A stretch of DNA of 64,000 nt from Callorhinchus milii. Taxonomy: Eukaryota. The position numbers are program-made. The stretch spans positions 23,126,001 through 23,190,000 of the forward strand of contig NW_024704747.1 of NCBI RefSeq assembly GCF_018977255.1. The letters are read 5' to 3'. Below are positions 33,001-63,000 of this stretch, in pieces (the stretch's first letter is position 1; the number at the start of each line of letters is the position of its first letter).

Positions 33001-36000
33001 CCTCCCTTCCCATTTTTGGATCTCTGCTGAAGACCATTTTTTTTCGACCGTGCCTTTGGTCACCTTCCCCCCCCTCCCCTTGGCTCGGTCCCGGGATCCA
33101 TTACTGTAAAGCGCTCTGAGACGCCGTCCAGCGTGGAGGGCGTATATAAATCCAAGTTGTTGTTGTGGAATTAACACAAGTGCAAAATAGGAGCAGTCAT
33201 GTTCTCTGCAACTGCTTGAAGAGATGGATATTACATACATACAATAATATACAAAATTACATCTGTGTAGCGCCTTTCACGACGGGAGGACATACCAAGG
33301 CGCTTGGTAAACCATCTTCAATGGTTGACTTAGAAATGTGAATTTCAACTTTTATGAAATCTGCTTTAGGAATTCAAATATTAGTGAATCAATCTCTTCT
33401 CAAATTAAAATAGATCCTGCTTTAAAGCCAGACAATTAAACCAATTCTGTTGTATTTTATTATGAAAGTGATCTAATGACACTCACATGAAAGCCGCCAT
33501 CCATAGACTCTCCAAACCACACATGCTTCATCTCATGGCTGCCTCTGTTTGACCACCAGCTCTTACGTGGGATGTTCGCAGGGTTAGGGTGCATGCAGGT
33601 CTCCCCAGTCTCCATGTTGCAGTGCACCTTGATGGCGTCCAATTTACAGCCTTGGTTGGGATCAATCCAGTACTCTCCTGTGAAGACAAAGTGACATTTT
33701 ACATCAAATTACAAACCAAAGTTTCAAATACCCCTGTAAATCTAAGGTCCAATCTGCGGATCAATAATAACAATACGTTCACATTTCAGTGTAAACAACT
33801 TAAGGAATAATTTACTCAACAAAGTAACTTACTTTGACAGTTTTTCTAACTACCTCACAGTGATCTCACTTTGAGCAACCTTTTGTTCAATATAACTGAT
33901 TAAAAAATAAACACTTATAAATTATGATAACTTGAAATGAAATTAAGGTAAAGCAGATCAGATGGGATGAAGAGCCTTCTTCAACCGACCTAATCTAGTG
34001 AACTTTGCACTACAATAACCATTGTATAGATACCCTTGTGGAGTTCCTTCCAAAACAGTTCAGGACATGTAGGAGTTTGACTTGGCAATTGGAAGTTCAA
34101 TGCAAAGAAAAGATGCAGGATTTTTGGGTTTGGAGTTGTGAGATATTTACTCTCATAGCCCCCAGAATTCACACTGGCCGAAAGAATGTAATGCAACTTA
34201 CTAAGCACGATCAAGCATTTTAAAAATACTCATGATAAAATGTACATGGATTTAACCTGTGTTGAAAGCTGTGGTGAACGCAAACCAGAGTACTGAACCC
34301 AAAGCGAAGAAAATGGCAATCTTGTCCTCAAACATAAAACACAGCTTCCTTACCACTGTTAAATTCCGGGTGGCAGGATTTTAGGTCACGGCAACTTCGG
34401 GCTGGATTCTTCTGTGATCCGTCAGGGCTCACCATGGCATCTATCCGTCCGTTTAGTGATTTCAGGGTCGCTATTACCTCTGCATCCTGTTGCTTCTTGG
34501 CATCTCCGGGCTGGTCGTTGTAATACCCATATGGCACACCCTTCTCGCCAGAAGGCACTCCACTTATTGCCGCTCCACAGCAGGGCCCAGGAGGACCAGG
34601 TGACCCAGGGAAACCAGGGATACCTTTTTCACCATGAGGCCCCTGTTAAATTCAAACAATGTTCCCGTATAAAATGTATAATTTCTTGTTCGTTTCAACT
34701 CAACACAGGAGCAGGATTTGGGTGAATTGTTTACTTACAGGAGTGCCAGATTCACCTCGTGTACCCCTGGGACCGGGAGGACCCATGGCGCCAGGATACC
34801 CGCTGATGCCATCTTTACCAGGAGGACCAGTTTTACCTGAAGGACCCTGAGAAGAAAATATAATGGATTAAATTATATATTTGATCCACACTGTGATTTA
34901 AAAGATGAAAGAATAAGAAAAAAAGATATGTAGCGAAACATACATTTACATCCTCTGTCTACCAATATCCTTCATTCGATTGTTTCGAAATGTTTTTTTC
35001 AATGTTGGATTTAGCTTGTGTCCAATTTTGAGAATGTCAGTGTTTGGATTGATCAAGTTAATGTATGTGGTTTTCAGTTATGGTTTCATGCGAGACAACA
35101 GGATTTCCGATATAGATTCCATTATCTATCATATAGAGTTACATAAAGTAATATGTGGCAATAGAAACAGGCTCAACCAGTCCTCAATGTTGTTTTTACT
35201 GAGGAATTACTGTTTGTTTGAGAACACCCTGTCTGTCAAGAGTCTCACCGCGTATTTAACAAATAGCCAATTGAACAAAGAAAATTCTCAATGAAGGCAA
35301 GCTTGGGATGAATCATGTTCCGATTGTGCAGACAGTTTTACTTGAATTGATTCAAATCTATCAAACTCGGGAGGCAAATACAAACTGATAACCTTTGTAT
35401 TGAATTCAATAGCAGAAGAGGAGTATGGTATATGACAGAGAGTTTTATTCATGCAGCTCTGTCTGCATTCTGCTTACTTTTTTCTTCCTCCGCCTCTTTA
35501 GAAATCCAAATCCATTTGAACTCAGCACATTGAGATGAGTGCTTCAACTAAGTCCTCATAAGTCATTTTGTCACAAAATAATATTGCGGAATTTCATTAA
35601 TAAGGTTTCTGCATACATTTCTGGTGTATGTTTTGAACCAAAGTCTGCTGATTCCAATTTCCCTCAAATTCATGTGAGACTAGAATCAAGAACAAGAACT
35701 GTTAGTTGAGTATCATTGAATTAAATCGGAGAATTAAGAGGGAGTATATTTAGATGTAAATTGTCAGGGATTTTTGGAGTTCAGGATTGATTCTTAATTT
35801 TATGCATGCAAATGAAAACATTGCTTGCATTGTATTCAAATAATTTGAATGAAATTATTGAAAGTTATAAAAAGTTGTCCTTAGTAAGTGGCTTCTGCTT
35901 AATAACATTGAAAATAATCACTTGAAAAGTTGATAGGCAGTCTTGCAAATGTGATCATTAGACTCACTCTGGCACCTTGAGATCCAGGATTTCCAGGTTG

Positions 36001-60000: not shown

Positions 60001-63000
60001 TGACACAAATATGTTTAATCCCTGCAATACTACTAATAATAACAATCTTTCCACTTGACATGATGGCTTACAACATAATTGAAATGTTCAGTGCTTCATA
60101 AGATGAACTATGAAGTGTAGCGAGTGTATTTGTAGATTAATATAGAATCTAATATTTACACAGCAATATGCCACAAATAACTATGAAGAGAATGACCAAC
60201 TTTATCTGGTGCACTATTGGCCAGGACATCTGGAGAAACTCCCTTGTCTTTTCGAACAGTACCATGGTGACAATTTAATATCCAAATGAACAGGTAAACG
60301 GTACCTCAGTTTAATTTCTCATCGGAGAGATGTCACTTCTGACAACATAATGCTCTTCCAGGATTACACTAGATTATCATGTTATACTGTCATCTTAATG
60401 TCCCTGCATGGGATTTGAGTCCCACAACCTGATGTCATTTGGGACCATTAGGGCCTACATCATTAATTGAATCTTTTACTGGCTGTGTGATAATAGGATT
60501 ATCATGTTACAAGCAGATTTACTGAGAGCAAGTAGAGAATCAAAGCATTAGTCAAGCTACTTACATCCTTTCCTCGTAACCCAGGTGGACCCAATGGACC
60601 AGGAGGACCTTGTGAACCCTGCAATGGGAAAAATGCTGAACAGGTTAAGCAGTGCTGATGTGACTTTTTGTGTTACACGGTATGATAGACTCATTACAAT
60701 ACAGTAATTCTTCATCTTAAAGAAGCACTGACAGAATGTGAGGCATCGGCACTGGTTCTGACATTACATATTCATCACATGAAGCATGGAGCTCTATATG
60801 CAAAAAATGGAATCCATAGTTTTACCATTTGTGAGATTGAGCTCAACTCGTCATTGAAAAAGAAAAGATCTATCATACGTGGATCAGTAAAAAGAATGAC
60901 CTTTACATCTAATGAAAAAAGATGGGTCTCAAAGATGGGTACAGTGAAGGGACATGATGGAGAGAGAATTTCTGCGATCCACATCTTAACTCTACCAATT
61001 ATTCCTTTATTATTGTTAATGCAATAAAATTCAGAGCCGTTCTCATGATGGTGTATTGGATGGAGATGCATCTTACGCACTAAATCGGTACCAATCCTGG
61101 TCTTTGCTGAGTTTGCTGGTCTCAGCAGGTGCTACATTGGGAAGCTAGAATTATTACTAAAAAATTATTAGTAACTGATTTGTGAGAAAACAAAAAACTG
61201 TATTCTGCAGTTGCCTGGTAACGTCAGAAACCTTCTGCTTCTAATAATAAGAATCAATTGCCTGGTCACAAATGGATGTTTGGGTGAAATAAATGGAATC
61301 CTATGGACTGACCTTTTCAAACACTGTATTATTTAGTACATCACTCTACAAGTACTAATTATAGTATTCTATCCGTTGTTAGATACTCACACTGGAGCCA
61401 GGTGACCCGGGCTCACCTGCTGGGCCTTGATAACCTTGAGAACCCTGGAGTAATCGAAACATCACACATTATTATTTGGGCTGAAACAGTGTGAACGTTT
61501 ACACAGTATTTGATGAATATGTCTGAATTGTCTGTCGTTGACTAATACAGCTGCTTATTTCAAGCACGCTTTCCCTAAGTAGCGAATTCAGCGTCGGAAT
61601 CTGAGATGAAGTGGAAACATTTATGAATAAAACAGAAGAGCAATAAAGTTTTACCATAATATTTTAGTCATAATATGTCACAATGCTATAATATTTTAGT
61701 CATTTATCAATGTTGTTGATATAAAAAAAACACGTTTGTTGCTGATAAAACCAACGAGCGAAGCATACAGTGACTCTTTTCTCGTTATGACTTTTTTATG
61801 TCAATCGAAATGGAACAATTTTCAAATATTCCCATTGATCAATCAGCTGGGAAGGTTCACTAAGATCACAGGAACATAAGGTCACAAAAGTCCACTGTGC
61901 CAAGTTAAAAGAAAGAACGCTGACTAAGTTATTCTACACAACCTCACTCTCATCCTACTAGATTAAATTCTTCGATGTGTAGCCACTGGATTCCTTTTGC
62001 ATTTCCTGACACAATCTTTCTCTGTTGGGCTCCCTCTGTCACCTATACCACGTGTTCACCAAACTCTGTGTAAAGGTATTAAATCTGACTTGTCGGGTCA
62101 CTTTCCCTTTTCTGAGCTTTGTAAACCATGTTAAATCTGTTATTGTATTTGAGTTTGTTGCTGGTTGTTAGACTTTAAATGCTTCACAAAGAACTCCCCC
62201 AATCTTATTTTCCCCAGTGCATGAGCATTCCAAGTGAAAAACTAAACACCCAAACACCAACGGATACTTACAGGTGACCCAGGTGATCCACGAATGCCTC
62301 TCGGTCCTTGAAGGCCCTAAAATAGCACATAAATTTTTAATTTAAGGACTTCATGGAAAGCAGACAAGTTAGAAATGATTTCAGTTATTGACCGTGTACC
62401 ACTTCCGTGGCTGATATATAAAGTGAAAGAAAACCCATCTTACCGGTTGACTAACTATCCCATATGCCCCACCACCACCACCACCACTGAGGCCTTTGAA
62501 ATCCCATCCTACTGGAGGACCATACCCACCAGACCCCTGGAGAGAAGTAAAATCAGAAATCAATACAGTACACATTTACATTTATACAGCACCTTTCACA
62601 TCAGGAGGACTTATTCGCTGTCTTCTGCTCGCGGAATACAAACTGGAAGGAGTCCACATGTCTGTTTTGGGCCCAGTTCAGCTAGATCCTGTATACAACA
62701 ACAACTTGCACTGTACAGCGCCCTCCATGCAGGGTAGCGTCTCAGAGCGCTTACCAGGAGTCCTGTAAGACACGGGTTTACTGTACCACGAATGGAAGAT
62801 TTATCATTTATCTACTATTAGATAGTCTACTTACGCTGCTACCACCGCCGGGTAGGCCTGGAAGTCCAGGGGGACCAGGAGGTCCTGGATAACCATTTCT
62901 TCCAGGTGGCCCGGCCGGACCCTACGAGAAAATAAAAGGGTAAAGAATTTCACTGGAATCAAACTCACATTGATGGGATTAAAGCCTCACCTCTCTACTG

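What the first reader, a model, noticed from the sequence alone, without database searches (positions are those of the whole stretch)
34580..62316. Triple helix with inverted Ser/Ala ratio and almost no GPP
Manual translation gives 339 uninterrupted triplets (1017 aa). It contains about 105 Ser, 32 Ala, 175 Pro and 14 His, with only 14 GPP triplets, never two in a row, even at the C-terminal nucleation end (GPH GEK GIP GFP GSP GPP GPC). Known: typical fibrillar chains have roughly three times more Ala than Ser and Pro-rich helix ends, and Ser enrichment marks cold-adapted fish collagens. Every Gly, both KGHR sites and the knot are intact, so this looks like directional change rather than decay. 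Inference: a low-Tm, flexible, hydrophilic specialised collagen.
Basis: partly seen in the sequence, partly recalled or inferred. Interest (0 to 1): 0.75.

Follow-up and report, generated by a model that had tools for sequence, protein, structure and literature searches.

The report
Serine-rich type III-like collagen gene
This is an intact, working-looking collagen gene of a chimaera-like cartilaginous fish, a relative of type III collagen with many serines and few alanines, and it looks like one specialised copy in a small gene family, not a decaying or heat-fragile oddity.

Summary

It is a fibrillar procollagen of the COL3A1 family. It has a complete COLFI C-propeptide. Its best solved-structure match is the human alpha-1(III) C-propeptide, and it falls in a starred COL3A1 clade. 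The closest protein is an uncharacterised partial Callorhinchus milii chain, 91% identical in the C-propeptide, so the source is probably a holocephalan, not human.

The "low-Tm" inference is not supported. GPP is rare because X-position Pro is depleted (56/1000). Y-position Pro, the hydroxyproline sites that dominate stability, is high (116/1000).

Low Ala, low total Pro and no GPP-GPP are shared by all four chondrichthyan COL3-like fragments. The Ser excess is shared with the Callorhinchus relative.

Ligand, cross-link and collagenase motifs are kept, so this is not decay. A second COL3-like gene starts 29 kb downstream. Related chains lack Cys C2 or C3, which hints at heterotrimers. The same species' COL1/COL2 could not be checked.

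The parts
62835..62921 (-). N-propeptide minor-helix exon (87 bp; contains GPPGPP)
   Evidence: AG acceptor and GT donor read; translation; weak Pfam Collagen match
62444..62536 (-). N-telopeptide exon (93 bp; Lys in DFKG, poly-Gly run, no regular Gly-X-Y)
   Evidence: homologous poly-Gly telopeptide seen in Galemys COL3A1
62272..62316 (-). helix exon 1 (45 bp)
   Evidence: AG/GT, phase 0
61391..61444 (-). helix exon 2 (54 bp)
60565..60618 (-). helix exon 3 (54 bp)
59931..59984 (-). helix exon 4 (54 bp)
59607..59660 (-). helix exon 5 (54 bp) with first KGHR (helix residue 84; 59618-59607)
59360..59413 (-). helix exon 6 (54 bp); 10 of 12 X/Y residues identical to Galemys COL3A1
59205..59249 (-). 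helix exon 7 (45 bp)
58595..58648 (-). helix exon 8 (54 bp) with GLPGER
57919..57963 (-). helix exon 9 (45 bp)
57740..57793 (-). helix exon 10 (54 bp)
55905..56003 (-). helix exon 11 (99 bp)
55767..55811 (-). helix exon 12 (45 bp)
55055..55153 (-). helix exon 13 (99 bp)
52900..52953 (-). helix exon 14 (54 bp)
51733..51840 (-). helix exon 15 (108 bp) with GLPGER
49351..49404 (-). helix exon 16 (54 bp)
49152..49250 (-). helix exon 17 (99 bp)
48984..49037 (-). helix exon 18 (54 bp)
47440..47538 (-). helix exon 19 (99 bp) with RGQPGVMGF (47487-47461)
47152..47205 (-). helix exon 20 (54 bp)
46746..46799 (-). helix exon 21 (54 bp)
46092..46145 (-). helix exon 22 (54 bp)
45827..45880 (-). helix exon 23 (54 bp)
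45462..45506 (-). helix exon 24 (45 bp)
45276..45374 (-). helix exon 25 (99 bp)
45090..45197 (-). helix exon 26 (108 bp) with GMPGER
44682..44735 (-). helix exon 27 (54 bp)
44535..44588 (-). helix exon 28 (54 bp)
44097..44150 (-). helix exon 29 (54 bp)
43607..43660 (-). helix exon 30 (54 bp)
42077..42184 (-). helix exon 31 (108 bp)
41470..41523 (-). helix exon 32 (54 bp)
40803..40856 (-). helix exon 33 (54 bp)
39982..40143 (-). helix exon 34 (162 bp)
   Evidence: searched alone
39534..39641 (-). helix exon 35 (108 bp) with GPLG-LIG at the collagenase-site position (helix residues 769-775)
38403..38510 (-). helix exon 36 (108 bp)
38057..38110 (-). helix exon 37 (54 bp)
37503..37610 (-). helix exon 38 (108 bp)
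36715..36768 (-). helix exon 39 (54 bp)
36508..36615 (-). helix exon 40 (108 bp) with second KGHR (helix residue 927; 36555-36544)
35968..36021 (-). helix exon 41 (54 bp)
34739..34846 (-). helix exon 42 (108 bp)
34354..34642 (-). junction exon: last 21 helix residues, CC knot, C-telopeptide, start of C-propeptide with Cys C1 and C2; ends in phase 1
   Evidence: COLFI positions 2-45; PDB 6fzw and 4gyx matches
33487..33677 (-). C-propeptide exon 2 (Cys C3, C4, C5)
   Evidence: COLFI 47-104, E 5e-25; 95% identical to P0001
32571..32813 (-). C-propeptide exon 3 (Cys C6, C7)
   Evidence: COLFI 106-186, E 3.8e-27; 91% identical to P0001
32070..32216 (-). C-propeptide exon 4 (Cys C8) with stop TAA at 32072-32070
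   Evidence: COLFI 187-233
2542..2617 (-). neighbour gene, exon 1: ATG and signal peptide of a second COL3-like procollagen
   Evidence: ends in phase 1, which fits exon 2
1252..1406 (-). neighbour gene, exon 2: VWC domain of the N-propeptide
   Evidence: Pfam VWC E 1.5e-9, 38.4 bits against a cut-off of 27.6; tblastn hits

Best explanation
The span is the complete triple-helix part of a functional fibrillar procollagen gene of the COL3A1 family. The gene lies on the minus strand and runs at least from 62921 to 32070 in the window; its first exons lie beyond the window.

The source is most likely a holocephalan (chimaera-like) genome, where the gene is one member of a head-to-tail cluster of COL3-like genes.

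Inferred mechanism:
- Three chains are selected and disulfide-locked by the 8-Cys C-propeptide. Both interchain cysteines C2 and C3 are present, so homotrimers are possible.
- The helix zips from the C-terminus, anchored by the CC knot rather than by a run of GPP.
- The propeptides are removed.
- The 339-triplet rod packs in the usual stagger and is cross-linked through the two KGHR sites.

The odd composition is a re-partition and not a loss of stability. Proline has been removed from X positions, mostly to Ser, Leu and Glu, and Ala has been replaced by Ser. Proline at Y positions, the hydroxyproline sites, is kept at or above normal levels.

This make-up is shared with the closest Callorhinchus chain, so it arose before the two diverged and has been maintained. 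It probably came from C-to-T-type Pro-to-Ser/Leu and Ala-to-Ser changes at weakly constrained X/Y sites in an AT-rich gene after duplication. Selection held Gly, Y-Pro, the ligand motifs and the C-propeptide.

Shown: anatomy, family, composition, conserved motifs, neighbour gene. Inferred: assembly, stability, origin of the bias, tissue role.
For: Anatomy and family:
- 43 of 43 exons have canonical splice sites and phase 0.
- COLFI is covered at positions 2-233 of 233 over four exons.
- The best solved-structure matches are alpha-1(III) C-propeptides 4ae2/6fzw (E 9.5e-30 and 2.6e-25), ahead of alpha-1(I) 5k31 (1.5e-23 and 9.5e-12). The type III cysteine-knot peptide 4gyx also matches.
- In a C-propeptide tree of 20 rows, all three window exon rows fall in a starred clade (97/95) with 3 tetrapod COL3A1 and 4 chondrichthyan COL3-like chains. 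COL2A1, COL1-like and COL5A2 rows fall outside it.

Nearest relative: the nearest protein is C. milii A0A4W3J7G2, 175 of 192 identical in the C-propeptide core.

Composition:
- X-Pro is 57 of 339 and Y-Pro is 118 of 339. The same partition occurs in that relative: 12 of 84 and 32 of 84.
- Y = Pro or Arg in 156 of 339 triplets (46%), against 37-40% in five other chains.
- Ser codons are 81 TCN and 24 AGY. GC3 is 0.242 and intron GC is 0.369.
- Ser/Pro exchanges are the commonest difference from the relative (9 and 7).

Conserved sites: motifs are kept at the homologous positions, and both C2 and C3 are present (cysteine code in PMC6181919, passages).

Neighbour: a second gene with a signal peptide and a VWC exon lies downstream.
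Against: - No expression, protein or melting data exist here.
- Only C-terminal fragments of relatives (36-84 triplets) were available. In that homologous quarter the Ser excess over the two less Ser-rich chains is not significant (p = 0.15 and 0.10).
- Total imino content (172/1000) is low, and 10 Gly-Gly-Y triplets are present. By the older total-imino rule this argues for a modest Td.
- Helix X/Y identity to the closest relative is only 67 of 156 (43%) while the C-propeptide is 91% identical. This could mean weak constraint on X/Y residues in general, or gene conversion of the C-propeptide between paralogues. In the second case the 'shared, inherited composition' argument is weaker.
- The expected COL5A2 tail-to-tail neighbour is not within the 32 kb downstream.
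Confidence: 0.62

Rival explanations
1. The composition is a lineage-wide or habitat-wide property (cold or deep-water cartilaginous fish) of all fibrillar collagens of this animal and nothing special to this gene.
For: - Low Ala (9-57/1000) and total Pro of 167-187/1000 occur in all 4 of 4 chondrichthyan COL3-like fragments, from two species.
- So do GPP at 4.9-8.3% and no two GPP in a row.
- Ala and total Pro of the window chain do not differ significantly from any of three of them when the whole helix is compared. The one exception is Ala against P0002 in the homologous last nine exons (p = 0.033).
- Holocephalans live in cool water, down to several hundred metres (PMC12952989, passages).
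Against: - Within one species (C. milii), two paralogues differ about 2-fold in Ser (91 against 53/1000). Their X/Y proline partition is opposite: 0.14/0.38 against 0.25/0.28.
- Bulk fish type I collagens tabulated in a review have Ala 118-133 and Ser 28-35/1000 (PMC7601392, table rows seen).
- No COL1 or COL2 sequence of any holocephalan could be obtained.
Confidence: 0.3
2. The shift is neutral drift driven by mutation bias in a redundant duplicate. The gene is kept in frame, but its X/Y residues are nearly free, so the make-up carries no adaptive meaning.
For: - GC3 is 0.242.
- 77% of Ser codons are TCN, one step from CCN or GCN.
- Ser and Leu together (91) outnumber Pro (57) at X.
- Ser-to-Pro and Pro-to-Ser differences from the relative are about equal, 9 and 7.
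- Helix X/Y identity to the relative is 43% against 91% in the C-propeptide.
Against: - Y-Pro is held at 35% and is not eroded, although CCN-to-TCN changes would hit it equally.
- Several recognised binding and cleavage motifs sit unchanged at homologous positions.
- The first six helix exons keep 39 of 70 X/Y residues identical to a mammalian COL3A1.
- 43% identity is far above the 13% given by triplet shuffles; 0 of 5000 shuffles reached it.
Confidence: 0.3
3. The chain normally works as the alpha-1-type partner in a heterotrimeric type III-like collagen, together with products of neighbouring paralogues that cannot homotrimerise.
For: - By the cysteine code, chains lacking C2 or C3 cannot form disulfide-linked homotrimers (PMC6181919, abstract and passages).
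- C. milii A0A4W3J7G7 and the Pristiophorus alpha-1(III)-like chain have Ser at C3. A second Pristiophorus chain has Asn at C2. All three carry the CC knot.
- The window chain and A0A4W3J7G2 have both cysteines.
- The window chain is collinear, without gaps, with the two C3-less chains over 76-82 triplets.
- A second COL3-like gene lies next door.
Against: - The cysteine pattern of the neighbour gene is outside the window.
- The relatives are computer-predicted partial models.
- The C-propeptide tree groups paralogues by lineage with modest support (82-85). The C3 loss would then be convergent, or the C-propeptides would be homogenised.
- No co-expression or protein data exist.
Confidence: 0.2
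4. The gene is a decaying pseudogene copy.
For: Only the unusual composition and the fast-diverging helix point this way.
Against: - 1017 helix codons have no stop and no lost Gly.
- All splice sites are canonical.
- The four C-terminal exons are intact and score E 6e-13 to 4e-27 for COLFI, with all 8 Cys.
Confidence: 0.02

Closest known systems
Vertebrate procollagen alpha-1(III), COL3A1 (solved human C-propeptide 4ae2/6fzw; cysteine-knot peptide 4gyx)
   Same: - 54-bp-based phase-0 exon plan.
- GPCCG knot at the helix end.
- 8-Cys COLFI domain, with the best PDB match and the tree clade.
- KGHR sites 843 residues apart, plus [21 protein letters not shown] and GPLG-LIG at homologous places.
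- 39 of 70 X/Y residues are identical to Galemys COL3A1 in the first six exons.
   Different: - 339 triplets. The mammalian chain continues N-terminally with three more triplets where this one has a non-helical stretch.
- Ser 103 and Ala 31 per 1000, X-Pro 17%, and only 14 GPP, never adjacent. The human construct in 6fzw shows two GPP next to the knot.
- The downstream neighbour is another COL3-like gene and not the COL5A2 tail. That tail-to-tail arrangement is recalled; the linkage is named in PMC8887668.
Callorhinchus milii A0A4W3J7G2 (P0001), an unreviewed 519-aa partial 'Fibrillar collagen NC1 domain-containing protein'
   Same: - The C-propeptide core is 175 of 192 identical.
- C2 and C3 are both present.
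- The make-up is the same: Ser 91, Ala 44, Pro 175 per 1000; X-Pro 0.14 and Y-Pro 0.38; no Fisher test is significant.
- The helix is collinear exon by exon.
   Different: - Only 67 of 156 helix X/Y residues are identical.
- There is one triplet fewer before the knot.
- The C-telopeptide is unrelated in detail.
- It cannot be decided here whether this chain is the orthologue in another species or a paralogue.
Cold-water fish type I collagens (more Ser/Thr, less imino acid)
   Same: Ser is raised and total Pro is low (172/1000).
   Different: - In those collagens hydroxyproline falls and Ala stays near 110-130/1000 (table in PMC7601392; the cold-water trend itself is recalled).
- Here Y-Pro is high (116/1000) and Ala has dropped to 31/1000.
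Heterotrimer-only fibrillar chains such as pro-alpha-2(I), defined by loss of Cys C2 or C3
   Same: Three relatives of this chain (P0003, P0002, P0004) show exactly such a loss (PMC6181919).
   Different: The window chain keeps both cysteines, so it is of the alpha-1 (homotrimer-competent) class.

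Membership tests
Fibrillar (clade A) procollagen | Uninterrupted major helix of about 1014-1029 residues | tested here: met
   1017 residues, 339 of 339 triplets start with Gly
Fibrillar (clade A) procollagen | Helix exons of 45/54/99/108/162 bp that start with a Gly codon and end with a complete Y codon | tested here: met
   43 of 43 exons; sizes and AG/GT
Fibrillar (clade A) procollagen | C-terminal COLFI (NC1) domain | tested here: met
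   Pfam PF01410 positions 2-233 of 233 over four exons, each above the 26.2-bit cut-off
Fibrillar (clade A) procollagen | N-propeptide with VWC domain | not testable with these tools
   The 5' exons of this gene lie beyond position 64000. Only the minor-helix and telopeptide exons are in the window. The VWC exon found belongs to the neighbour gene.
COL3A1 (alpha-1(III)) family | Two adjacent Cys (knot) directly after the last triplet | tested here: met
   The helix ends GPC and is followed by C-G. It matches the 4gyx knot peptide at E 6.9e-4.
COL3A1 (alpha-1(III)) family | C-propeptide closer to alpha-1(III) than to other clade A chains | tested here: met
   PDB ranking. Per-exon identities are 64-73% to COL3A1, 58-77% to COL2A1 and 52-66% to COL5A2. 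The clade is starred at 97/95 in the tree built with window exons as separate rows.
COL3A1 (alpha-1(III)) family | Homotrimer-competent cysteine code (C2 and C3 both present) | tested here: met
   C1-C8 are all present. Actual trimer composition was not tested.
COL3A1 (alpha-1(III)) family | Tail-to-tail linkage with COL5A2 | tested here: not met
   tblastn with two COL5A2 C-termini and four COL3-like chains finds no other C-propeptide in 1-32000. A COL3-like 5' end lies there instead. COL5A2 may lie further on.
COL3A1 (alpha-1(III)) family | One-to-one orthology with tetrapod COL3A1 | tested here: inconclusive
   At least two, perhaps three, COL3-like lineages exist in cartilaginous fishes. 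Which of them is the direct counterpart cannot be told from C-terminal fragments.
Cold-adapted, low-Td collagen | Reduced Y-position proline/hydroxyproline | tested here: not met
   Y-Pro is 116/1000, above the 67.8-110.5 range reported for 24 species.
Cold-adapted, low-Td collagen | Measured low denaturation temperature | not testable with these tools
   Needs protein; no calculation here replaces it.

The most novel reading that the evidence does not exclude
Cartilaginous fishes carry a small tandem family of type III-like genes in three cysteine-code classes: C2+C3, C3-less and C2-less. All three classes have the CC knot. Their 'type III' collagen would then be, at least in part, a heterotrimer, against the textbook view that type III is a homotrimer.

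The window chain is the alpha-1-type member. Its Ser-rich, X-Pro-poor, Y-Pro-rich helix would be a specialisation of that member, for example for a fin-fold or dermal matrix. In bowfin, col3a1 rises 133-fold together with actinodins as the fin fold forms (PMC8423624, passages).
Probability: 0.2. Interest if true: 0.7.

Novelty: new member of a known kind. Interest (0 to 1): 0.42.

Why it matters
The chain is a natural experiment on what stabilises a collagen helix. It keeps hydroxyproline sites but has lost half of its X-position prolines and most alanines, while keeping the known binding, cleavage and cross-link sites.

Measuring its melting point would test, in a native full-length chain, the claim that Y-position hydroxyproline dominates stability and that GPP content does not.

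It also shows that the COL3 locus was duplicated in cartilaginous fishes, and that some copies carry the cysteine signature of heterotrimer-only chains. That bears on how vertebrate matrix genes diversified. No paper found here describes these genes.

Tried and rejected
1. Searching the largest helix exon alone (54 aa). It gave 200 proteins at E<=1e-3 among 815 candidates, with the best 120 listed. None carries a type III name; they are types XXI, VII, XI and MARCO. It gave no orthologue.
No other helix exon reaches 40 aa.
3. The full HMMER scan of representatives with one C-propeptide exon. It gave 463 hits at E<=0.001, with the best 150 listed. All are unnamed, the highest identity is 69%, and nearly all are short (only two of the 150 exceed 1000 aa). 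They could include human-derived fragments, so none was fetched or used.
4. 'Full-length' named hits were meant as whole-helix comparators (Galemys and Cricetulus COL3A1, Camelus, Channa, Varanus and Lamprotornis COL5A2). Their helices are out of frame in the public models, so only in-frame pieces were used.
5. Ungapped alignment from the helix end seemed to show that P0001 was unrelated in the helix. This was a one-triplet register error, corrected.
6. Elastoidin or ceratotrichia as the tissue role: the searches found no link to col3a1. This is kept only as speculation.
7. FAM20C-type S-x-E sites number only 3, so the idea was dropped.
8. Five long ORFs in repeats gave no Pfam family.
9. Published chimaera skin-collagen composition: only a review remark was found, saying that rabbitfish skin collagen shows hardly any alpha-2 band (PMC7601392). 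The original paper is not in the library.
10. No per-triplet Tm calculation was made, because the host-guest table was not found in the papers read and recalled values would be unreliable.

Full report
**Observation.** The window has no N and a GC content near 0.39. A six-frame scan for Gly-X-Y runs finds a column of minus-strand exons from 62316 down to 34580.
- Each of the 43 exons follows an AG.
- The 42 internal exons are followed by GT. The last one runs on into the C-telopeptide and ends at a GT at 34353-34352.
- Sizes are 5 x 45, 23 x 54, 5 x 99, 8 x 108 and 1 x 162 bp, plus 63 bp of helix in the junction exon. That is 3051 bp, or 339 triplets.
- Summed exon by exon, the chain holds Gly 352, Pro 175, Ser 105, Ala 32 and His 14, with 14 GPP never adjacent, two KGHR sites and a helix end followed by Cys-Cys-Gly.

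A further Gly-X-Y run at 57457-57422 has no splice sites and sits in a repeat.

**Gene anatomy beyond the given span.**
- Upstream lie an N-telopeptide exon (62536-62444, with a Lys and a poly-Gly run) and a minor-helix exon of the N-propeptide (62921-62835). The minor-helix exon does contain GPP-GPP. Earlier exons are outside the window.
- Downstream, the junction exon (to 34354) and three more exons (33677-33487, 32813-32571, 32216-32070 with the stop) encode a complete COLFI domain. They cover profile positions 2-233 of 233, and each exon scores above the Pfam cut-off.

**What it is.**
- Searched exon by exon, the C-propeptide matches solved human alpha-1(III) C-propeptides best (4ae2, 6fzw), ahead of alpha-1(I). 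The junction exon also hits the type III cysteine-knot peptide 4gyx.
- In a maximum-likelihood tree of C-propeptides, the three window exons were entered as separate rows. All three fall in a starred clade (97/95) with three tetrapod COL3A1 and four chondrichthyan COL3-like chains, apart from COL2A1, COL1-like and COL5A2 rows.
- The first six helix exons align without gaps to an in-frame stretch of Galemys COL3A1, with 39 of 70 X/Y residues identical.

The gene is a COL3A1-family procollagen.

**Whose it is.**
- The nearest protein in the large collection is a partial, unreviewed Callorhinchus milii chain, A0A4W3J7G2. It is 95, 91 and 87% identical in the three C-propeptide exons, or 175 of 192 overall.
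- A second C. milii chain (A0A4W3J7G7) is 79% identical. Two Pristiophorus chains are 72-73% identical, and tetrapod COL3A1 is 69% identical.
- The window is rich in tRNA-derived SINE copies and has short introns. This fits what a recent paper says of holocephalan genomes (PMC12952989, passages).

I take the source for a holocephalan.

**Composition in context.** The shift is even along the helix: Ser is 24, 27, 33 and 21 per quarter, and Ala is 9, 8, 10 and 5. By position:
- X positions hold Ser 59, Pro 57, Glu 35 and Leu 32.
- Y positions hold Pro 118, Ser 46 and Arg 38.

GPP is therefore rare because X-Pro is rare, not because Y-Pro is.

| Chain | Ser /1000 | Ala /1000 | Pro /1000 | X-Pro | Y-Pro |
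|---|---|---|---|---|---|
| Window | 103 | 31 | 172 | 0.17 | 0.35 |
| A0A4W3J7G2 (C. milii) | 91 | 44 | 175 | 0.14 | 0.38 |
| A0A4W3J7G7 (C. milii) | 53 | 39 | 175 | 0.25 | 0.28 |
| Pristiophorus alpha-1(III)-like | 49 | 57 | 187 | 0.29 | 0.27 |

- None of the four chondrichthyan fragments has two GPP in a row, and their GPP share is 4.9-8.3%.
- Fisher tests show no difference between the window chain and A0A4W3J7G2 for Ser, Ala or Pro.
- Against the other two chains, Ser is higher (p = 0.014 and 0.005) if the whole window helix is used. It is not significantly higher in the homologous last nine exons alone.
- Fish type I collagens tabulated in a review have Ala 118-133 and Ser 28-35 per 1000 (PMC7601392, table rows seen).

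So the inverted Ser/Ala ratio is real and unusual for fibrillar collagens at large. But low Ala, low Pro and sparse GPP belong to the whole chondrichthyan COL3-like group sampled. The Ser excess belongs to this chain together with its Callorhinchus relative.

**Stability.** Taga et al. measured position-specific imino acids and Td in collagens of 24 species (PMC8233474; abstract, Results and Discussion read; supplements closed, so no regression could be applied).
- Y-position 4Hyp correlated best with Td (r = 0.965 among vertebrates).
- Gly-X-4Hyp triplets counted as much as Gly-Pro-4Hyp.
- The effect of X-Pro was judged limited.
- Their ranges were 70.2-112.8/1000 for X-position and 67.8-110.5/1000 for Y-position imino acids.

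The window chain has 56/1000 at X, below that range, and 116/1000 at Y, above it. Y is Pro or Arg in 46% of triplets, against 37-40% in five other chains and 51% in A0A4W3J7G2. Arg at Y is about as stabilising as Hyp in model peptides (PMC7824840, passages).

Against this stand the low total imino content and 10 Gly-Gly-Y triplets. The sequence therefore gives no ground for a specially low Tm. It suggests a chain that moved its stabilisers to the Y position.

**Not decay.** The following are in place:
- KGHR at helix residues 84 and 927, which is 843 residues apart; as I recall it, that is the spacing of the cross-link sites in type I.
- RGQPGVMGF at residue 393.
- GLPGER at residues 124 and 301, and GMPGER at residue 547.
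- GPLG-LIG at residues 769-775, the collagenase position.
- All eight C-propeptide cysteines.

The roles of these motifs (VWF/DDR2/SPARC binding, integrin binding, MMP cleavage) are recalled from the collagen peptide literature and were not tested here.

**How it diverges.** In the last eight full exons, 67 of 156 X/Y residues match A0A4W3J7G2.
- That is far above chance: the shuffle mean is 20 and 0 of 5000 shuffles reached 67.
- It is no higher than the match to the more distant chains (42% and 41%), although the C-propeptide is 91% identical.
- Either the helix X/Y residues turn over fast in this lineage, or the C-propeptides of neighbouring paralogues are homogenised by gene conversion. 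Without nucleotide sequences of the relatives I cannot tell which.
- Ser codons are 77% TCN and GC3 is 0.242. Ser/Pro exchanges are the commonest difference. This fits C-to-T-type traffic between Pro and Ser.

**Neighbour gene and cysteine code.**
- About 29 kb downstream on the same strand, a second procollagen gene begins. It has an ATG and signal peptide at 2617-2542 and a VWC exon at 1406-1252 (Pfam E 1.5e-9), with matching splice phases.
- No other C-propeptide, and no COL5A2 tail, lies in 1-32000.
- By the cysteine code of DiChiara et al. (PMC6181919, abstract and passages), chains with both C2 and C3 can form disulfide-linked homotrimers. Chains lacking either one cannot.
- The window chain and A0A4W3J7G2 have both cysteines. 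A0A4W3J7G7 and the Pristiophorus alpha-1(III)-like chain have Ser at C3. The second Pristiophorus chain has Asn at C2.
- That is the pattern the paper gives for 2:1 and 1:1:1 heterotrimers. These are predicted, partial models, so this remains a lead and not a result.

**Verdict.** The finding is a real, intact, unusually composed member of a known family.
- Its 'directional change, not decay' reading is supported.
- Its 'low Tm' reading is not supported.
- Its gene-specific framing holds only for the Ser excess, and even that is shared with a Callorhinchus relative.

**Left out or unchecked.**
- The spliced model was searched exon by exon only. So there is no whole-chain homology search, no structure or trimer prediction, and no whole-chain tree.
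- Unnamed database hits might stem from people's samples. They were neither fetched nor used.
- Supplementary tables of PMC8233474 (Td and composition per species) and PMC8887668 (accessions) could not be seen. They might allow a numeric Td estimate and a better comparator set.
- Searches for a prior description of duplicated or Ser-rich COL3-like genes in cartilaginous fishes found none. That library does not hold most subscription journals.

Noticed in passing
window 2617-2542 and 1406-1252, minus strand: This is the start of a second COL3-like procollagen gene (signal peptide exon and VWC exon), head-to-tail with the studied gene and about 29 kb downstream. The rest of it lies beyond position 1.
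   Followed up: yes
proteins P0003, P0002, P0004 (relatives, not in the window): Three CC-knot-bearing chondrichthyan COL3-like chains lack one interchain cysteine of the C-propeptide. Two have C3 replaced by Ser and one has C2 replaced by Asn. This is the signature of heterotrimer-only chains.
   Followed up: partly
window 5781-6082, 11363-11690, 13992-14207, 18016-18329, 24243-24596, 47790-47978, 48389-48761, 49495-49834: These are many copies of a SINE-like repeat of roughly 200-320 bp. Five copies carry a tRNA-like head that Rfam scores as tRNA and ARAGORN calls Val, Ala or Glu. Several lie in collagen introns.
   Followed up: partly
window 22852-23386, 52324-52903, 56695-57665: GC-rich, C-skewed repeat copies with long open frames but no Pfam match. 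One of them produces the spurious Gly-X-Y run at 57457-57422. From recall they look like LINE 3' tails; this was not tested.
   Followed up: partly
window 44807-45002: A roughly 196-bp stretch matches its own reverse complement at 85% (a palindromic element). It lies in the intron between helix exons 26 and 27.
   Followed up: no
window 62536-62444: The N-telopeptide carries a run of six Gly, as does Galemys COL3A1. Where the mammal has three more helix triplets, this chain has a non-helical stretch, so the helix is slightly shorter at its N-end.
   Followed up: partly
proteins P0024, P0033, P0028, P0054, P0259, P0260: Several public 'full-length' COL3A1 and COL5A2 gene models are translated out of frame through most of the triple helix. 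They are unusable as composition references.
   Followed up: partly
protein P0012: A COLFI-domain protein 68-76% identical to this gene's C-propeptide exons is filed under a bacterium (Kangiella spongicola). This is probably animal DNA in a bacterial assembly.
   Followed up: no
PMC7601392, table of sources: A review notes that rabbitfish (Chimaera monstrosa) skin collagen differs from that of sharks and bony fish. It shows hardly any alpha-2 band and extra bands at 136 and 161 kDa. This may bear on which chains dominate chimaera skin.
   Followed up: no
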